Shown here piece by piece: positions 2,237 to 10,014 of a stretch of DNA of 10,014 nucleotides. The translations under genes were made by a program, and so were the position numbers. Positions within the stretch are counted from its first letter, which is position 1, and every line of letters begins with the position of its first letter. The notes under the pieces are model-generated. The model searched no databases. It saw only the letters and a list, made by a program, of their open reading frames with translations, and had not been told where the DNA came from. The DNA is from a virus (Duplodnaviria; Heunggongvirae; Uroviricota; Caudoviricetes), in IMG/VR virus record IMGVR_UViG_3300029107_000029, positions 1 through 10,014 of that record; one strand, written 5' to 3'.

Positions 2237-2261
2237 GGGCGCCAGAAATGGCGCCTTTTTT
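2237..2261 (+). terminator. Putative rho-independent terminator downstream of J
   Basis: GC-rich hairpin gggcgcc (2237-2243) / ggcgcc (2250-2255) with a 6-nt loop agaaat, followed directly by a run of six T (2256-2261). Confidence 0.5.
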
Positions 2262-2885: not shown

Positions 2886-2912
2886 TTAGCCAGGTAACAC
2901 AGTGTTATGACA

Positions 2913-2938
2913 GCCCGCCGGTTCAGGCGGGCTTTTTT
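2913..2938 (+). terminator. Rho-independent terminator downstream of lom
   Basis: Hairpin gcccgcc (2913-2919) / ggcgggc (2926-2932) with loop ggttca, followed by six T (2933-2938). Confidence 0.6.
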
Positions 2939-2949
2939 GTGGAGTGGAT

Positions 2950-5307
2950 ATGGCAGCAGTAAAAATCTCAGGTGTGCTGAAAGATGGTGCGGGAAAACCA
3001 ATACAGAACTGCACTATTCAACTGAAGGCAAAGCGTAACAGCACCACGGTACTGGTGAACACGGTGGCCTCTGAAAATCCGGATGAAGCCGGGCGTTACA
3101 GCATGGATGTTGAGTATGGCCAGTACAGCGTCATCCTGCTGGTTGAAGGTTTTCCGCCTTCACATGCCGGGACCATTACCGTCTATGAAGGCTCCAGACC
3201 AGGTACGCTGAATGATTTTCTCGGCGCCATGACGGAAGATGATGTCATGCCGGAGGCATTGCGTCGTTTTGAGGAAATGGTGGAAGAAGCGGCACGCAAC
3301 GCTGAAGCCGCCTCTCAGAGCGCAGCGGCGGCAAAGAAATCCGAAACTGCAGCGGCATCATCGAAGAACGCGGCGAAAACCTCAGAAACGAATGCAGCTA
3401 ACAGCGCACAGGCGGCAGCGGCCTCGCAGACTGCATCGGCAAATTCCGCGACAGCAGCTAAAAAATCAGAAACCAACGCGAAAAATAGCGAGACAGCAGC
3501 AAAGACGAGCGAAACCAACGCAAAGTCCAGCCAGACGGCAGCGAAAACCAGCGAAACGAATGCTAAAGCCAGTGAAACTGCGGCGAAAAATAGCCAGAAT
3601 GCAGCAGCCGAAAGCGAGAGCGCGGCAGCCGGTTCTGCGACTTCAGCAGCTGGATCAGCAACTGCTGCGGCTAACAGCCAGAAAGCAGCGAAGACGAGCG
3701 AAACTAACGCAAAGTCCAGCCAGACGGCAGCGAAGACCAGCGAAACGAATGCCAAAGCCAGCGAAACTGCGGCGAAAAACAGTCAGGATGCAGCAGCCCA
3801 AAGCGAGAGTGCCGCAGCTGGTTCTGCAACAGCGGCAGCTAATAGCCAAAAAGCTGCAAAAACCAGTGAAACTAACGCAAAGACGAGTGAAACAAAAGCA
3901 GCAGCCAGCGAGACAGAAGCAACGTCAGCCGCAACAAGAGCAGAGAATGCAGCCCGGATTGCAGAAGATGCCGCTGATCCTGCTTCTGTCCCTCCGCTTC
4001 CTGATATCTGGCTACCCTTGAATGATTCTCTGGAAGCGATAACAGGGTATGCGCCGGGCTATAAAACAATAACCATCGGCAGTGATGAAATAACAATGCC
4101 TGTTAATGGCATATGCCAATTTAGCCGGGCTTCATCAGCAACGTATATTGATAAGTCCGGGCATATTACCGTAGCAGGTAATAACGTTCCTCGTTTTGAA
4201 AAATATGGTTTGCTGATAGAGAATCAGCGAACAAACATGTTCGTAAATAGTTTTAATCCTGATGCCTGGAATAAAAGCGGTGGTATATCTGTAACATCAT
4301 CAACAGATGAATTTGAGTTTAAATATGGACGTTTCACAGTAGGAAGCGATATAGCAGGAACGACAACAGGGAGAAATATATGCACAGTTGCTGGTAATAA
4401 AGGCATAGATGTGACTGGCGATGATCAGTACAGTAAAGGTCCGTATGTTACCGCGTCGTTCAGGGTAAGAAGTGATCTCAATGTTCGCGCACGTATCCGT
4501 TTTGAACGGTATAACTCGGAAGGATACACTTTCCTTTGTGACGCCTATTTGTCATTACAGACTCATGAACTACAAATTACGGGTGGTAATGCCCAGCTAT
4601 TAACAGCAAACTTTGAAATCGACCCTGGTAGTGGATGGATATATTTTCAGGCAACACTGAAATGTCTGCCAGAATGGGGAATGGTTGGTACGCAGCTGCA
4701 AATTGCAGCCGACAGAGCTGTGGGGTCTTTTGCAACAGGTGACTGGATAGAAGTAACCACCCCGCAATTCGAGTATGGTGCTTGTGCAACTTCCTTTATC
4801 ATAACGACAACAGAGCCAGCGACTCGTGCATCAGATTTATGTAAATTTCCGCTGATGAAAAATATGTATACCATGCCTTTTACGTTCATGGTGGAAGTCC
4901 ATAAAAACTGGTTTATTTCTCATAATGCTGCACCGCGTGTCATTGATTCAGAAAATCACCAGTCCGGAGGCCCATTTATTATGGGGTTTGGTTCTTCTGG
5001 AACTATCAGTCAGGATGGTTATTCGTATTGCGATATAGGCGGGGCTAACCGGCGTGTATATGAGTCATGCGGAGTAAGAGATCTCGTTATGGGATTCAGG
5101 GTTAAGGCTGACGGCATGACATGTTCATTTGCAAATAAGAATATAAGCACTGAAACCAAAACAGTATGGAAATATATTCGTGAAGCAGCCGTGATTCGTA
5201 TCGGGGGGCAAACGACGACAGGATTACGACACCTTAATGGTCATATAAAAAACCTCCGTTTCTGGAACAGAGCATTGTCAGATACGCAGCTTAAGGAATA
5301 CGTATAA
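2950..5307 (+). CDS. stf: Side tail fibre protein (Stf-like), 785 aa: lambda-like N-terminus and Ala/Ser/Thr/Lys-rich repeat shaft, with a non-lambda C-terminal half ending in a LamG/concanavalin-A-like signature
   Basis: Preferred start is ATG 2950 with GGAG at 2941-2944 (5-nt spacer); the GTG at 2944 in the ORF track has no Shine-Dalgarno. N-terminus MAVKISGVLKDGAGKPIQNCTIQLKAKRNSTTV...GRYSMDVEYGQYSVIL...FPPSHAGTITVYE matches recalled lambda Stf. The C-terminal ~450 aa do not resemble lambda Stf; the extreme C-terminus GLRHLNGHIKNLRFWNRALSDTQLKEY fits the characteristic end of LamG_3/concanavalin-like lectin domains (...G.ID.vRiynRALSaeEI...). Confidence 0.85.
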   Translation: MAAVKISGVLKDGAGKPIQNCTIQLKAKRNSTTVLVNTVASENPDEAGRYSMDVEYGQYSVILLVEGFPPSHAGTITVYEGSRPGTLNDFLGAMTEDDVMPEALRRFEEMVEEAARNAEAASQSAAAAKKSETAAASSKNAAKTSETNAANSAQAAAASQTASANSATAAKKSETNAKNSETAAKTSETNAKSSQTAAKTSETNAKASETAAKNSQNAAAESESAAAGSATSAAGSATAAANSQKAAKTSETNAKSSQTAAKTSETNAKASETAAKNSQDAAAQSESAAAGSATAAANSQKAAKTSETNAKTSETKAAASETEATSAATRAENAARIAEDAADPASVPPLPDIWLPLNDSLEAITGYAPGYKTITIGSDEITMPVNGICQFSRASSATYIDKSGHITVAGNNVPRFEKYGLLIENQRTNMFVNSFNPDAWNKSGGISVTSSTDEFEFKYGRFTVGSDIAGTTTGRNICTVAGNKGIDVTGDDQYSKGPYVTASFRVRSDLNVRARIRFERYNSEGYTFLCDAYLSLQTHELQITGGNAQLLTANFEIDPGSGWIYFQATLKCLPEWGMVGTQLQIAADRAVGSFATGDWIEVTTPQFEYGACATSFIITTTEPATRASDLCKFPLMKNMYTMPFTFMVEVHKNWFISHNAAPRVIDSENHQSGGPFIMGFGSSGTISQDGYSYCDIGGANRRVYESCGVRDLVMGFRVKADGMTCSFANKNISTETKTVWKYIREAAVIRIGGQTTTGLRHLNGHIKNLRFWNRALSDTQLKEYV
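3499..3900 (+). repeat. In-frame tandem repeats inside stf (units of 189 bp and 168 bp, about 90% identical, plus a partial third unit), nested in a shorter SETNAK-type periodicity
   Basis: Direct sequence comparison: accaacgcaaagtccagccagacggcagcgaa at 3514 recurs as actaacgcaaagtccagccagacggcagcgaa at 3703 (offset 189 bp = 63 codons) and partially at 3871 (offset 168 bp = 56 codons). Encoded peptide AAKTSETNAKSSQTAAKTSETNAKASETAAKNSQ[N/D]AAA[E/Q]SESAAAGSAT... is repeated. Confidence 0.85.
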
Positions 5308-5576
5308 TGCGGGATATAACATTACGATTCGATAACAGAGAACAGTTTAACGCAATTGTATATGACAGTGGCCTGTTCAGTCTTGAAGAAGAAAATGGGG
5401 TTCTTGTTGATGTTATTGGCTGCATTATTGATTACGAGGAACCAGAAAACGAAAGATGTACAGGCATTGATCGCGGTGGTTTTTTCGTAAACATGAGGAT
5501 TGTTGATGGCAGTAAAAACATATCTTCTTTAATGCCTTTCATTACGACAGATCAGCATGTAAGGACATGGGCTTAA
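5307..5576 (+). CDS. Hypothetical acidic protein, 89 aa, translationally coupled to stf; function unknown (candidate cognate fibre chaperone by position only)
   Basis: Its ATG (5307-5309) overlaps the stf stop TAA (5305-5307) in a TAATG arrangement. No recognisable motif. ORF is intact and co-oriented within a tight operon. Confidence 0.55.
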   Translation: MRDITLRFDNREQFNAIVYDSGLFSLEEENGVLVDVIGCIIDYEEPENERCTGIDRGGFFVNMRIVDGSKNISSLMPFITTDQHVRTWA

Positions 5577-5588
5577 TGGAGTAAGACA

Positions 5589-6293
5589 ATGGTTACAAAA
5601 ACAGTAATTCCAGGAGACATCACCACGTTAAAGGGAGATGTCAGTAAAGCCAAGGAAGATATTTCCTCAATTAACGTAAAAGTATCAACGCTTCAGGCTG
5701 ATATGACCAGTGCAAAGCAGGATATCAGCTCCAGATACACAAAAACTGAAGTTGATAATAAGCTGAAAAACAAACTGGAAGTGAACGATCTGGAAAGTGG
5801 TCGTTATGGTGGAGATTTTTACCCGCTGACTGGCCGTGAAGCGTTTTATTTATGGGGGTTGGGCACGACTACTGCGGCGGCAAACCTTTATCTTAATCCT
5901 GACCCCGCAATTTCGTCTGTGCTGCGGTCAACATCGTCTATCCGCTATAAACATTCAGTAGAGACGATAGATTCGGAGCACGCCGATCTCATTTTCAAGA
6001 TGCGCCCTGTATGGTACAGGTCGCAATGCGAAAATGACAGGCGCGATTGGGGATTCTATGGATTGATTGCCGAGGAAGTAGGAGAAATTGCCCCTCAGTT
6101 TGTTCACTGGCGACCAGCTAACGAAGATGATGCACCGGAAACCATTTCCAGCAATGGCCTTGTTGCCGAAGGTGTAATGTACGAACGTCTGGTTGTTCCA
6201 CTGATTCACCATATCCAGAAGCTGACTGAAAGAGTTGATGAACTTGAGTCAGAATTAAAGTTGTTATTAACTTCCCGAAGCGATATTGGATAA
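5589..6293 (+). CDS. Tail-fibre-like protein, 234 aa: N-terminal coiled-coil-like repeats plus C-terminal peptidase S74 / intramolecular chaperone-like domain
   Basis: ATG 5589 with GGAG at 5578-5581. N-terminal repeats ITTLKGDVSKAKEDISSINVKVSTLQADMTSAKQDISS. C-terminal segment SSIRYK...LIFKMRPVWYR...GLIAEEVGEIAPQFV...GVMYERLVVPLIHHIQKLTERVDELESELKLL fits the recalled S74 'chaperone of endosialidase' pattern (S-x4-K, klrPvtYr, GfIAQEv..P..v, vdY..lv.lli.AiqeL). Confidence 0.7.
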   Translation: MVTKTVIPGDITTLKGDVSKAKEDISSINVKVSTLQADMTSAKQDISSRYTKTEVDNKLKNKLEVNDLESGRYGGDFYPLTGREAFYLWGLGTTTAAANLYLNPDPAISSVLRSTSSIRYKHSVETIDSEHADLIFKMRPVWYRSQCENDRRDWGFYGLIAEEVGEIAPQFVHWRPANEDDAPETISSNGLVAEGVMYERLVVPLIHHIQKLTERVDELESELKLLLTSRSDIG

Positions 6294-6303
6294 AGGAGGA
6301 GTA

Positions 6304-6597
6304 ATGGATATAACACCTTTCCTTCACGCGCTTTGTGCTGTGGCTGCGCAGGTACTGGTTGGTCTTTTTACCGGGAACTGGGCTTACGGAGCGATAGCCG
6401 GTTGTACGTTCTTCATTGCGCGTGAACACACCCAGGCAGAATATCGCTGGATTGAAATGTTCGGGCATGGCAAGCGAATGAATATGCCTTGGTGGGGCGG
6501 TTTTGATCCACGTGCATGGGATGTGGCAAGCCTGATGGATTTTGCTGTGCCGGTGGTGGCGTGTCTGCTGGTCTGGCTGTTGATTAATCGCGGGTGA
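6304..6597 (+). CDS. Small predicted inner-membrane protein, 98 aa, about three hydrophobic segments; function unknown
   Basis: ATG 6304 preceded by AGGAGG (6294-6299); the ORF track's TTG at 6286 overlaps the upstream stop and is less likely. Hydrophobic stretches FLHALCAVAAQVLVGLF, WAYGAIAGCTFFIA and LMDFAVPVVACLLVWLLI. No lipobox or signal-peptidase site recognised. Confidence 0.55.
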   Translation: MDITPFLHALCAVAAQVLVGLFTGNWAYGAIAGCTFFIAREHTQAEYRWIEMFGHGKRMNMPWWGGFDPRAWDVASLMDFAVPVVACLLVWLLINRG

Positions 6598-6829: not shown

Positions 6830-8173
6830 CTATGATAGCTCGCTATGTATGATTACCTTGTTTCTGCCAGTTCTTTTGGCTTCATATAGCGATTCATCTG
6901 CTTGAGCCAAGATTTCTGAAGGCATGAGTTTATTTGAAAGAGTGATGAACCCACCTATGCTGATAGTGACTCTTTCAACCCCATATTTAACAGTAAGATT
7001 TTGTGTTTTCACTTCAACATTCCTTCTTATTCTTTCGCTGATTGCTGAGATCTGAGAAAATGAAAGATCATTGAATACAATGGCGAATTCTTCCCCTCCA
7101 AGTCGGCCGAATAAATCTTTGTTCCTGATTGTCTTTGCAATAATCTTTGTTACTGTGCTTATTACTATATCTCCAGTGTGATGTCCATGCTGGTCATTTA
7201 TCTTCTTGAAGTGATCAATGTCGAGCATTAATACACAAATGGAATTATTATTGTTATTTTTTAATATTGTCTTGAAGGCATTTAAAAAACCACCTCTATT
7301 ATAAGTGTTAGTTAAAAAATCGTGTGATGCCAGATAATCTGAATATTTTAATTTCAAAAATATAAAATACATTAGAGTGCATATGATATATAGGCTGGAT
7401 GCTAGTTCAAACCCTTTGGCCCAATACCATATAGGATAACGTGAATCCATAAAATGCAATAATATTAAGTTATCACATGCTAGAGCAATGCTGATAAAGC
7501 TAATGCAAAACCATATTTTTGAATAATTTTTAATAAAAAAACATGAAGAAACAAGAAGTAATAGCCAGAAATAAATTATCGTCTTAATGTAGAATGTATT
7601 CCATGTCAATTGATGGCTGACGGAGGAATAGTATACTATATTAATAGAGTAGCTTTCATTCGCGCTACTTAATATTTTGGCTGTAAATGATATGAAAATA
7701 AGAATTAGTATGGCAAATAGTATTGTGAATGTATTTTTTCTATTTGCACAAGTGTAAATTTCTTTTGAATGGCTTGAAAAAATAGCAACACAGGAAATTA
7801 ACACAAAGCTTATTTGACGGAAAAAGTAAAATATTGCGACGTCATTTGCCTTCTGGATTATTAAGGATTCAGAAGATATTGGTGTTTGCACAATAATTAT
7901 TGTCTCTACAAAATAATAGAGATTGTTCAGGAATGCAATGGCTAGAATCAGCAGGCAAATTTGTTTTTGATGAGATGTATAGTATAAAAACATAAATATA
8001 CAAATCATAAGGTTTATAAAAAACAGGCCTACAATAAAGATAATATAGTTGGTTTGGGTTGTTTGTGTAAGGTATAGCCAATTTTTCTCATGTAACTGCA
8101 TGAGAAAAAATGAAACAAAGATGAATATAATGGAAAATATTTTTAAACTTACAGGTACTGTACGAGTAGTCAT
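6830..8173 (-). CDS. Membrane-anchored diguanylate cyclase, 447 aa: N-terminal ~8-TM sensor-like domain plus C-terminal GGDEF domain with GGEEF active site and RxxD I-site
   Basis: ATG at 8173 (- strand) with AGGTGG 4 nt upstream (complement of 8178-8183). C-terminal domain contains HDFLTNTYNRGGF, the I-site RNKD five residues upstream of RLGGEEF, and DESLYEAKRTGRNKV. N-terminal 270 aa has about eight hydrophobic segments. The gene is very AT-rich with Ile/Phe/Asn/Lys/Tyr-rich codon usage, unlike the flanking genes. Confidence 0.9.
   Translation of the reverse strand: MTTRTVPVSLKIFSIIFIFVSFFLMQLHEKNWLYLTQTTQTNYIIFIVGLFFINLMICIFMFLYYTSHQKQICLLILAIAFLNNLYYFVETIIIVQTPISSESLIIQKANDVAIFYFFRQISFVLISCVAIFSSHSKEIYTCANRKNTFTILFAILILIFISFTAKILSSANESYSINIVYYSSVSHQLTWNTFYIKTIIYFWLLLLVSSCFFIKNYSKIWFCISFISIALACDNLILLHFMDSRYPIWYWAKGFELASSLYIICTLMYFIFLKLKYSDYLASHDFLTNTYNRGGFLNAFKTILKNNNNNSICVLMLDIDHFKKINDQHGHHTGDIVISTVTKIIAKTIRNKDLFGRLGGEEFAIVFNDLSFSQISAISERIRRNVEVKTQNLTVKYGVERVTISIGGFITLSNKLMPSEILAQADESLYEAKRTGRNKVIIHSELS

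Positions 8174-9540: not shown

Positions 9541-10014
<474 letters not shown>

What the first reader, a model, noticed from the sequence alone, without database searches (positions are those of the whole stretch)
5307..5576. 89-aa acidic protein translationally coupled to the tail fibre gene
The TAATG stop/start overlap with stf implies stoichiometric co-expression, the usual arrangement for a fibre and its dedicated chaperone or adaptor. The protein resembles nothing I recognise, including Tfa, T4 gp38/gp57 or Mu U. It may be a new fibre-assembly factor specific to the LamG-like distal domain.
Basis: inference. Interest (0 to 1): 0.45.

Follow-up and report, generated by a model that had tools for sequence, protein, structure and literature searches.

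The report
Small partner protein of a fibre tip
This is a real, conserved 10-kDa phage gene that always travels with one particular type of tail-fibre tip, from coliphages to marine cyanophages, so it is almost certainly a dedicated helper or subunit of that tip, although nobody has yet tested what it does.

Summary
An 89-codon ORF (5307-5576, +) starts at the A of the stf stop codon (TAATG), has its own Shine-Dalgarno and encodes an acidic protein (pI 4.4). It is a real gene: PHROG 1361 (function unknown), dN/dS 0.13-0.39, found in 141 of 5426 complete E. coli genomes.

Its partner is the C-terminal 437 residues of Stf, which are related to the RcGTA head-spike fibre and end in a LamG-like part. 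In all 130 fetched loci that could be judged, and in every phage lineage sampled, a homologue of the small gene lies directly after a gene ending in this module. These include lambdoid, T5-like, Seuratvirus, T1-like, Dhillonvirus, rV5-like, P1-like and marine cyanophage genomes. The distal module and the small gene are exchanged as one low-GC cassette.

The next gene is optional. It is usually a second fibre protein with a conserved N-terminal peptide on unrelated bodies. Where it is missing, the small gene is still under purifying selection.

The protein has no sequence or fold relationship to Tfa, gp38, gp57A or S74 chaperones. Best reading: a fibre-tip accessory protein of a new family. Whether it is a chaperone or a retained adaptor is unresolved.

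The parts
2944..5307 (+). stf, side tail fibre protein 'A' (787 aa as listed; a lambda-like start MAAVKISG at 2950 is equally possible)
   Evidence: PF08400 phage_tail_N at residues 5-134 (E 6e-67) and phrog_1419 over the full length. No Peptidase_S74 or other chaperone domain.
3994..5304 (+). Distal module of Stf (residues 351-787), starting at the PLPDIWLP motif: an RcGTA head-spike-fibre-like domain followed by a LamG-like C-terminal part. This is the proposed partner of ORF89.
   Evidence: NF048003 GTA_spike_fiber at Stf 424-629 (E 2e-12). Profile hit to PDB 6tb9 Rcc01080 (E 3.8e-14). Weak Laminin_G_3 hits in homologues. 34-53% identical modules in T5-like, Seuratvirus, Drexlerviridae, Dhillonvirus, Vequintavirus and P1-like phages.
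3783..5592 (+). Exchangeable cassette: distal part of stf, ORF89, the intergenic spacer and the first codon of fibre B
   Evidence: Against prophage L089, identity is 91-100% on both sides but only about 50-60% inside this block (90-nt bins, so the limits are approximate). GC is 42% here against 52-61% in the upstream tail genes.
5293..5297 (+). Shine-Dalgarno-like AAGGA for ORF89, inside the end of stf
   Evidence: Read directly from the sequence; 9 nt before the ATG.
5307..5576 (+). ORF89: 10.2-kDa acidic alpha/beta protein of family PHROG 1361, the feature under study
   Evidence: Invariant in 68 sequences: M1, D3, F8, G38, G58, R64, W88. Nearly invariant: D35, I37, N62, R86, A89.
5578..5581 (+). 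GGAG Shine-Dalgarno for fibre B in the 12-nt spacer
   Evidence: Sequence. A spacer of 9-12 nt with a Shine-Dalgarno is kept in all B-containing loci.
5589..6293 (+). Fibre protein 'B' (234 aa): conserved N-terminal peptide, coiled coil, and a C-terminal Peptidase_S74 intramolecular chaperone domain
   Evidence: PF13884 at residues 116-172. phrog_3299 C-terminus over 1-226, and phrog_4563 / phrog_19752 on the first 31-32 residues only. The B homologue is a virion band in phage SIA3lw (PMC12752171).
5589..5633 (+). N-terminal peptide of B, MVTKTVIPGDITTLK (pattern M.T.T.IP.DI..LK), shared by B proteins with at least six unrelated bodies
   Evidence: Residues are kept through synonymous codon changes.
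6286..6597 (+). Small membrane protein (phrog_1443; the conserved start MDITPF is at 6304) that closes the module in lambdoid prophages
   Evidence: phrog_1443 E 4.5e-59 over residues 7-102. In some loci it follows the small gene directly, with no B.

Best explanation
ORF89 is a dedicated accessory protein of one kind of phage fibre tip. The tip is the C-terminal roughly 440 residues of Stf: an RcGTA head-spike-fibre-like lectin domain plus a LamG-like domain. This module has no chaperone domain of its own.

Shown: the small gene is made from the same transcript immediately after the fibre, here by a stop/start overlap. The fibre tip and the small gene are inherited and swapped as one cassette.

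Inferred: the small protein binds the distal module as it is made and is needed for that module to fold or assemble into a working tip. In role it would resemble Tfa or gp38, but it has a different ancestry.

More speculative: it may stay bound on the finished fibre. There it could also help hold the conserved N-terminal peptide of the next fibre protein (B) when one is present.
For: 1. Real gene under purifying selection.
2. Co-occurrence. 130 of 132 loci fetched through either gene carry both, adjacent and in the same order. The two exceptions are an IS insertion in the small gene and a contig end.
3. The same pair occurs in T5-like, Seuratvirus, Drexlerviridae and Dhillonvirus phages. It also occurs in Vequintavirus myoviruses (E 9e-12), P1-like plasmid prophages and marine cyanophage loci.
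4. The distal module and the small gene form one recombination block whose 3' limit lies at the start of B.
5. The downstream gene varies or is absent. In prophages where a terminator follows the small gene directly, that gene keeps all its motifs, with median dN/dS 0.18.
6. Stf has no S74 or other chaperone domain, whereas B carries its own.
7. The invariant extreme C-terminus (R-x-W-A, or R-V-F-A in cyanophages) and N-terminus suggest a fixed protein-protein interface.
8. No hit to defence-system models.
Against: No experiment on any family member was found in the searchable literature. No co-fold could be run, so physical binding is inferred from linkage only. Tight linkage inside a 1.8-kb cassette would produce co-inheritance even without interaction. 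Pairwise divergence of the small protein correlates only moderately with that of the distal module (Spearman about 0.5). By sequence, the related RcGTA protein Rcc01080 covers only the first sub-domain. Its gene is described as lying immediately upstream of capsule genes (PMC5026251), so that sub-domain may not need such a partner. The predicted fold is a generic beta-alpha-beta-beta-alpha unit (pLDDT 75.5) with no informative structural neighbour.
Confidence: 0.55

Rival explanations
1. The protein is mainly a structural connector that stays in the virion. It sits on the distal module of fibre A and captures the conserved N-terminal peptide of fibre B, making a branched or jointed fibre. In gene order and role this would resemble the small hinge proteins between the T4 half-fibres. 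In this reading the distal domain, the adaptor and the docking peptide form a portable branching cassette.
For: B proteins share only their first 15 or so residues (M.T.T.IP.DI..LK) while their bodies belong to at least six unrelated types of 98-589 aa. Those residues persist through synonymous codon changes. In a P1-like prophage the cassette sits at the Sc/Sv junction of fibre gene S. It splits S into Sc plus the distal module, and a new N-terminus plus an Sv-like body that keeps its U chaperone. B has no virion-attachment domain, yet its homologue is a Coomassie band in CsCl-purified SIA3lw particles (PMC12752171). Marine phage loci repeat the pattern: a conserved 25-residue N-terminus, MATNIGTGPQDIPLNQFLGEMAFMD, on at least four different bodies after the small gene. 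Branching of LtfB on LtfA is documented genetically for DT57C (PMC4728585).
Against: The small gene is retained under purifying selection where no B exists and in Vequintavirus loci, whose downstream gene lacks the peptide. So docking B cannot be its only job. The B N-terminal motif resembles ordinary fibre-shaft repeats and is tandemly repeated in phage tunus, so it may be a recombination joint and not a docking peptide. DT57C-type branched fibres work without any such small protein. The small protein has not been looked for in virions: reported gels stop at 19 kDa or use 10% gels.
Confidence: 0.25
2. The protein has a function other than fibre assembly and rides in the cassette. One example is a cytoplasmic mask or inhibitor of the sugar-binding site of the distal module. 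Another is a host-directed or exclusion factor.
For: Nothing direct. Function is unknown for the whole family. The protein is small and acidic. It evolves faster than the fibre module: mean pairwise identity 0.47 against 0.56-0.61.
Against: It has been adjacent to the same module, on the same strand and in the same order, from coliphages to cyanophages. That is not what a dispensable passenger gene would show. It is present in strictly virulent phages (T5-like, rV5-like), where lysogeny-related functions make no sense. It has no signal peptide or membrane segment in the sequence and no defence-model hit. A mask or inhibitor would still be a fibre-specific binding partner.
Confidence: 0.08
3. 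The ORF is not a functional gene: a chance reading frame or a decaying remnant.
For: None, beyond the absence of any annotation other than 'hypothetical protein'.
Against: Full-length family match, dN/dS well below 1, conserved length and termini across distant phages, and its own Shine-Dalgarno.
Confidence: 0.01

Closest known systems
Tail fibre assembly proteins of the Tfa / P2 G / Mu U / P1 U type (Pfam Caudo_TAP, PF02413) and T4 gp38
   Same: The gene lies immediately after the fibre gene, is tightly coupled to it, and is exchanged together with the receptor-binding end of the fibre. The expected role is folding of the distal end, possibly staying bound.
   Different: No sequence match to PF02413 or any other Pfam or NCBIfam model. 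About half the size. The predicted fold is a small beta-alpha-beta-beta-alpha unit. In P1-like prophages a genuine U (Caudo_TAP) chaperone is present as well, serving fibre B.
Intramolecular chaperone domains (Peptidase_S74) of T5 pb1, K1F endosialidase and DT57C LtfA/LtfB
   Same: They solve the same problem, assembly of a fibre C-terminus. They occur in the same loci: fibre B of this window has one.
   Different: They act in cis and are cleaved off. Stf here has none, and ORF89 is a separate polypeptide with no similarity to them.
Branched 'anchor-branch' receptor-binding systems: DT57C LtfA-LtfB, phiEco32 gp14-gp15 (PMC4728585). From my own knowledge, not checked here: G7C gp66-gp63.1 and KP32-type Klebsiella phages.
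   Same: A first fibre attached to the tail, and a second fibre that lacks an attachment domain and has a short conserved N-terminus on variable bodies. The B proteins of T5-like phages carrying this cassette have been described as LtfB orthologues (PMC6563131).
   Different: Those systems are described without a separate 10-kDa protein between the two genes. Their anchor carries an S74 domain or another docking domain, not the GTA-spike/LamG module.
T4 gp57A (my own knowledge)
   Same: A small acidic protein needed for fibre assembly.
   Different: gp57A is helical, encoded away from the fibre genes and serves several fibres. ORF89 is predicted to be mixed alpha/beta and is tied to one module. 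No Pfam model matched ORF89 above threshold. I did not confirm that Pfam holds a gp57A model.
RcGTA head spike fibre Rcc01080 (PDB 6tb9). This is the closest relative of the partner domain, not of ORF89.
   Same: Homologous to Stf residues about 392-633 (E 3.8e-14). It binds capsular polysaccharide and is a single flexible subunit (PMC7296036).
   Different: By sequence it covers only the first sub-domain (325 aa). Its gene is reported to lie directly upstream of capsule genes (PMC5026251), so no small partner is evident. I did not check this on the sequence.

Membership tests
PHROG 1361 (phage protein family, function unknown) | Full-length match to the family profile | tested here: met
   E 1.9e-30, residues 1-89 on profile positions 1-92 of 92.
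Tfa / Caudo_TAP tail fibre assembly proteins (PF02413) | Match to the Caudo_TAP profile | tested here: not met
   No hit at E up to 1 in Pfam or at E up to 0.1 in NCBIfam. The model does detect the real U proteins in locus L145 (precomputed hits).
Tfa / Caudo_TAP tail fibre assembly proteins (PF02413) | Gene directly downstream of the fibre gene and co-inherited with the fibre's distal end | tested here: met
   This is a resemblance in role, not membership.
Tfa / Caudo_TAP tail fibre assembly proteins (PF02413) | Required for fibre folding or trimerisation | not testable with these tools
   Needs deletion or co-expression experiments.
Intramolecular chaperone (Peptidase_S74, PF13884) | S74 domain at the C-terminus of the fibre, or in the candidate itself | tested here: not met
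   Absent from ORF89 and from Stf. Present in fibre B at residues 116-172.
T4 gp38 / gp57A-type chaperones | Sequence or fold similarity | tested here: not met
Anchor-branch (branched) fibre systems | Second fibre protein without a virion-attachment domain, encoded next to the anchor | tested here: met
   B (5589-6293) has no PF08400 or other attachment domain.
Anchor-branch (branched) fibre systems | Conserved short N-terminus on otherwise unrelated branch proteins | tested here: met
   M.T.T.IP.DI..LK on bodies of 98-589 aa. A cyanophage analogue exists.
Anchor-branch (branched) fibre systems | Branch protein present in the virion | tested here: inconclusive
   Literature only, and for a homologous cassette: SIA3lw ORF44 is a band in CsCl-purified particles, but that preparation also contained non-structural proteins (PMC12752171).
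Anchor-branch (branched) fibre systems | Physical docking of the branch on the anchor, and whether ORF89 mediates it | not testable with these tools
   No multimer prediction was available. Needs a co-fold, pull-down or cryo-EM.
Anti-phage defence or counter-defence proteins (PADLOC models) | Match to any model | tested here: not met
   No hit at E up to 0.01.

The most novel reading that the evidence does not exclude
ORF89 is the hub of a portable three-part fibre-branching cassette: a lectin-like distal domain, a 10-kDa adaptor, and the docking peptide of the next protein. The cassette can drop into any fibre gene and split it into an anchor and a branch. The phage then gains a new receptor specificity without losing the old one. 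This design would be conserved from marine cyanomyoviruses to coliphages and P1 plasmids.
Probability: 0.25. Interest if true: 0.75.

Novelty: new variant of a known kind. Interest (0 to 1): 0.55.

Why it matters
Fibre tips of this type are common. The distal module was found in 220 of 50,697 phage records, including BASEL model phages, T5-like biocontrol phages and P1-like plasmids. This ORF89 allele alone is in 2.6% of complete E. coli genomes. Host-range engineering depends on knowing which helper genes must move with a fibre tip. If this 10-kDa protein is required, chimeric fibres built without it will fail. If it also docks a second fibre, it offers a compact natural way to add a second receptor specificity. 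It would also add a family unrelated to Tfa, gp38, gp57A and S74 to the known fibre-assembly solutions.

Tried and rejected
- Single-sequence AlphaFold model: pLDDT 48, discarded.
- First word-indexed homologue search and the 1.84-billion-representative phmmer search: only 4-6 hits. The two long ones (cadherin-like and Ig-like repeat proteins, E about 1e-6) were judged motif-level noise.
- PDB sequence search with the family profile: only a weak hit to telomerase protein p19 (E 0.015), rejected as chance.
- Genome-contig scan with the family alignment: no hits. The wider alignment was too divergent to build search patterns.
- Divergence correlation of the small protein against the two sub-domains of the distal module: about 0.5 for both, so it does not locate a binding site.
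- Virion proteomics papers for AKFV33, mar004NP2 and SIA3lw: none resolved proteins near 10 kDa, so they say nothing on chaperone versus structural. The phiLLS paper has no proteomics.
- Lambda Stf engineering papers: they do not use this fibre type.
- The idea that B's N-terminus must dock on the small protein is weakened by DT57C-type phages, which branch without it.
- The idea that B is a dead remnant is rejected: the ORFs are intact, the N-terminus is under selection, and the protein is detected in virions.
Full report
**1. What is in the window**

The window is the tail end of a lambdoid E. coli prophage. In order it holds:
- the 3' part of J (20-2218; Ig_J, Phage_Tail_Tip and GpJ_C domains);
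- lom (2286-2885);
- stf (2944-5307; PF08400 N-terminus and phrog_1419);
- the 89-codon ORF (5307-5576);
- a 234-aa fibre-like protein with a Peptidase_S74 domain (5589-6293);
- a 103-aa membrane protein (6286-6597, phrog_1443).

Beyond that lies a 28-29% GC island with a MASE4-GGDEF gene on the other strand, and then a Usp gene. Strong terminator-like hairpins follow J and lom. None of comparable quality lies between the stf start and 6597.

**2.

- The stf stop TAA (5305-5307) and the ATG of the ORF (5307-5309) share one base. AAGGA lies 9 nt upstream.
- The product is 10.2 kDa with pI 4.38.
- It matches PHROG 1361, a family of unknown function, end to end (E 1.9e-30).
- Pairwise dN/dS medians are 0.13-0.39 in four length classes of homologues.
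- The allele is present at 95% identity or more in 141 of 5426 complete E. coli genomes, always annotated as a hypothetical protein next to a fibre gene.
- It is 100% identical in the inducible ECOR phage PhiR11_1.

**3. The partner is the fibre's distal module**

Stf residues 351-787 begin at a PLPDIWLP motif. They contain a domain that NCBIfam calls the GTA head spike fibre domain (residues 424-629). A profile of this region matches PDB 6tb9, RcGTA protein Rcc01080, with E 3.8e-14. That protein is a single flexible capsule-binding subunit (PMC7296036).

This module occurs in 220 phage records.

- **T5-like phage AKFV33.** The LtfA-like protein orf137 ends in the same module (34% identity). 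It is followed by orf136, an 88-aa homologue of ORF89 (33% identity), and then by a second fibre gene.
- **Same three-gene order elsewhere.** It is seen in Seuratvirus, other T5-like phages, a T1-like Warwickvirus and a Dhillonvirus.
- **rV5-like myovirus JeffSchatz.** A 1479-aa fibre ending in this module is followed, with a 1-nt overlap, by a 110-aa protein that matches the family profile (E 9e-12).
- **Cyanophage S-WAM2 and 14 marine loci.** A 400-440-aa protein with the module is followed by a 103-122-aa homologue. It keeps the motifs Y-L-K-F, D-V-V-G and G-W-H-V-N-V-R and the C-terminal R-V-F-A. In one of these loci (L138) the module-bearing gene is not immediately adjacent; I did not resolve why.

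**4. Systematic co-occurrence**

I fetched 32 viral contigs through the small protein and 80 through the distal module, and added the loci already held. HMMs of both proteins were run over all ORFs. All 132 loci had the module and 130 had the small gene directly after it.
- One exception, L070, has an IS element inserted after codon 19 of the small gene.
- The other, L090, ends 27 nt after the fibre gene.
- The spacing from the fibre stop is -4, -1, 0, +1 or +10 nt.

Caveat: the 80 module-derived loci were the best of 499 candidates (at least 48% identity). The more distant cases in part 3, at 25-53% identity, behave the same way. No orthologue was seen outside a fibre context.

**5. One exchangeable cassette**

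I compared the window with another E. coli prophage (L089) that has nearly identical flanks. DNA identity is 91-100% in the stf shaft (2973-3783) and in B plus the membrane gene (5592-6582). It is only about 50-60% from about 3783 to about 5592. The replaced unit is therefore the distal part of stf, ORF89, the spacer and the very start of B. This block has 42% GC against 52-61% for the upstream tail genes, which fits horizontal acquisition.

**6. The downstream gene is optional**

Three arrangements follow the small gene:
- a fibre protein 'B' starting M.T.T.IP.DI..LK, with bodies of 98 to 589 aa that belong to at least six unrelated types;
- the phrog_1443 membrane protein directly;
- an intrinsic terminator and the end of the prophage, in the class integrated next to zntB-dbpA-ttcA.

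In that last class the small gene keeps all family motifs, with median dN/dS 0.18 at dS 0.34. The small protein therefore has a job that does not depend on B.

**7. What B suggests**

The conserved residues of B's first 15 positions persist through synonymous codon changes: three codons each for I7 and I11, and four for P8. My motif search fixed those residues, but the unbiased listing shows the same N-termini.

In a P1-like plasmid prophage (L145) the cassette lies in the Cin-invertible segment.
- Protein A is P1 Sc (residues 1-518, 98% identical to the uninterrupted S of L144) fused to the distal module.
- B is a new 30-residue N-terminus joined to an Sv-like body and still followed by its U chaperone.
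- This looks like an insertion that split one fibre gene in two.

B has no tail-attachment domain. Even so, the B homologue of phage SIA3lw (ORF44) is a stained band in CsCl-purified particles, alongside A (ORF42) (PMC12752171).

Marine loci show the same logic: a 25-residue N-terminus on at least four unrelated bodies.

Against a docking role:
- the motif resembles ordinary shaft repeats and is duplicated in phage tunus;
- DT57C-type phages branch LtfB on LtfA without any small protein (PMC4728585).

**8. What the protein looks like**

With a 68-sequence alignment AlphaFold gives pLDDT 75.5 and pTM 0.68. The elements are beta(2-8), alpha(11-19), beta(32-40), beta(58-65) and alpha(73-78).
- BFVD returns only uncharacterised phage proteins.
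- There is no convincing Pfam, NCBIfam, PDB-sequence or PADLOC match.
- Invariant positions are M1, D3, F8, G38, G58, R64 and W88. D35, I37, N62, R86 and A89 are nearly invariant.
- The conserved extreme C-terminus suggests a fixed binding interface. This is inference.

**9. Interpretation**

Shown:
- it is a real gene;
- it is obligately adjacent to one fibre-tip module across very distant phages;
- the two are exchanged together;
- it is constrained even without B;
- it is unrelated to the known fibre chaperones.

Inferred:
- it binds the distal module and is needed for that module's assembly;
- whether it is released (a chaperone) or retained (a tip subunit or adaptor for B) is open.

I put 0.55 on the accessory/assembly reading and 0.25 on a primarily structural adaptor. 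I put 0.08 on another cassette-borne function and 0.01 on no function.

**10. Literature**

Searches on DT57C LtfA/LtfB, AKFV33, the BASEL collection, RcGTA head spikes, lambda Stf engineering and virion proteomes found no statement about this small protein. Database records call it 'hypothetical protein'. Bas34 labels it 'tail fiber protein' and Bas22 labels B 'putative lateral tail fiber chaperone', without evidence.

**11. Verdict**

It is a new family within a known kind of function (fibre accessory proteins). It has a plausible but unproven extra role in a portable branching cassette. Interest is moderate to good.

Noticed in passing
window 5589-6293 (+): The next gene is a short second fibre protein (234 aa) with its own Peptidase_S74 intramolecular chaperone. 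Its N-terminal peptide MVTKTVIPGDITTLK is shared by otherwise unrelated fibre proteins in many phages.
   Followed up: yes
window 6286-6597 (+), conserved start at 6304: A 97-103-aa membrane protein (phrog_1443, function unknown) closes nearly every lambdoid version of this fibre module. In some prophages it follows the small gene directly. It overlaps the end of fibre B by 8 nt as listed.
   Followed up: partly
window 6830-8173 (-): A MASE4-GGDEF diguanylate cyclase gene sits in a 28-29% GC island between the prophage end and a Usp gene (9541-9975, -). It looks like separately acquired cargo.
   Followed up: partly
window 3239-4021 (+) and 3315-3755 (-): Long out-of-frame and antisense ORFs overlap the Ala/Ser/Thr-rich repeat region of the stf shaft (SETNAK..AAKTSE repeats). 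They are most likely by-products of the repeats, not genes.
   Followed up: no
window 2237-2256 and 2912-2933 (+): Strong terminator-like hairpins flank lom, so lom looks like its own small transcription unit. stf starts only 11 nt after the second hairpin.
   Followed up: no
L145 3101-7950 (P1-like plasmid prophage); also L144, L146: The fibre-tip cassette occurs inside the Cin-invertible C segment of P1-like plasmids. It splits tail fibre gene S into two genes and keeps the U and U' chaperones.
   Followed up: partly
L070 about 5315-5718; protein P0003: Some E. coli copies of the small gene are cut by an IS element after codon 19 (L070). P0003, a 64-aa protein that matches ORF89 over its first 36-39 residues and then diverges, carries the name 'CP4-44 prophage; predicted disrupted hemin or colicin receptor'. 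That name looks like a mis-annotation.
   Followed up: partly
L137 4517-5047; L138 5342-5896; L141 3904-4434; L148 3351-3875; L149 3028-3552: In marine cyanophage-like contigs, the gene after the small-protein homologue starts with an identical 25-residue peptide (MATNIGTGPQDIPLNQFLGEMAFMD). At least four unrelated bodies follow it, mirroring the coliphage fibre B pattern.
   Followed up: partly
L001 8287-10387: In E. coli K56-43-un the same prophage module is followed by a cdtABC cytolethal distending toxin operon, where this window has the GGDEF island instead. The cargo at this prophage end is variable.
   Followed up: no
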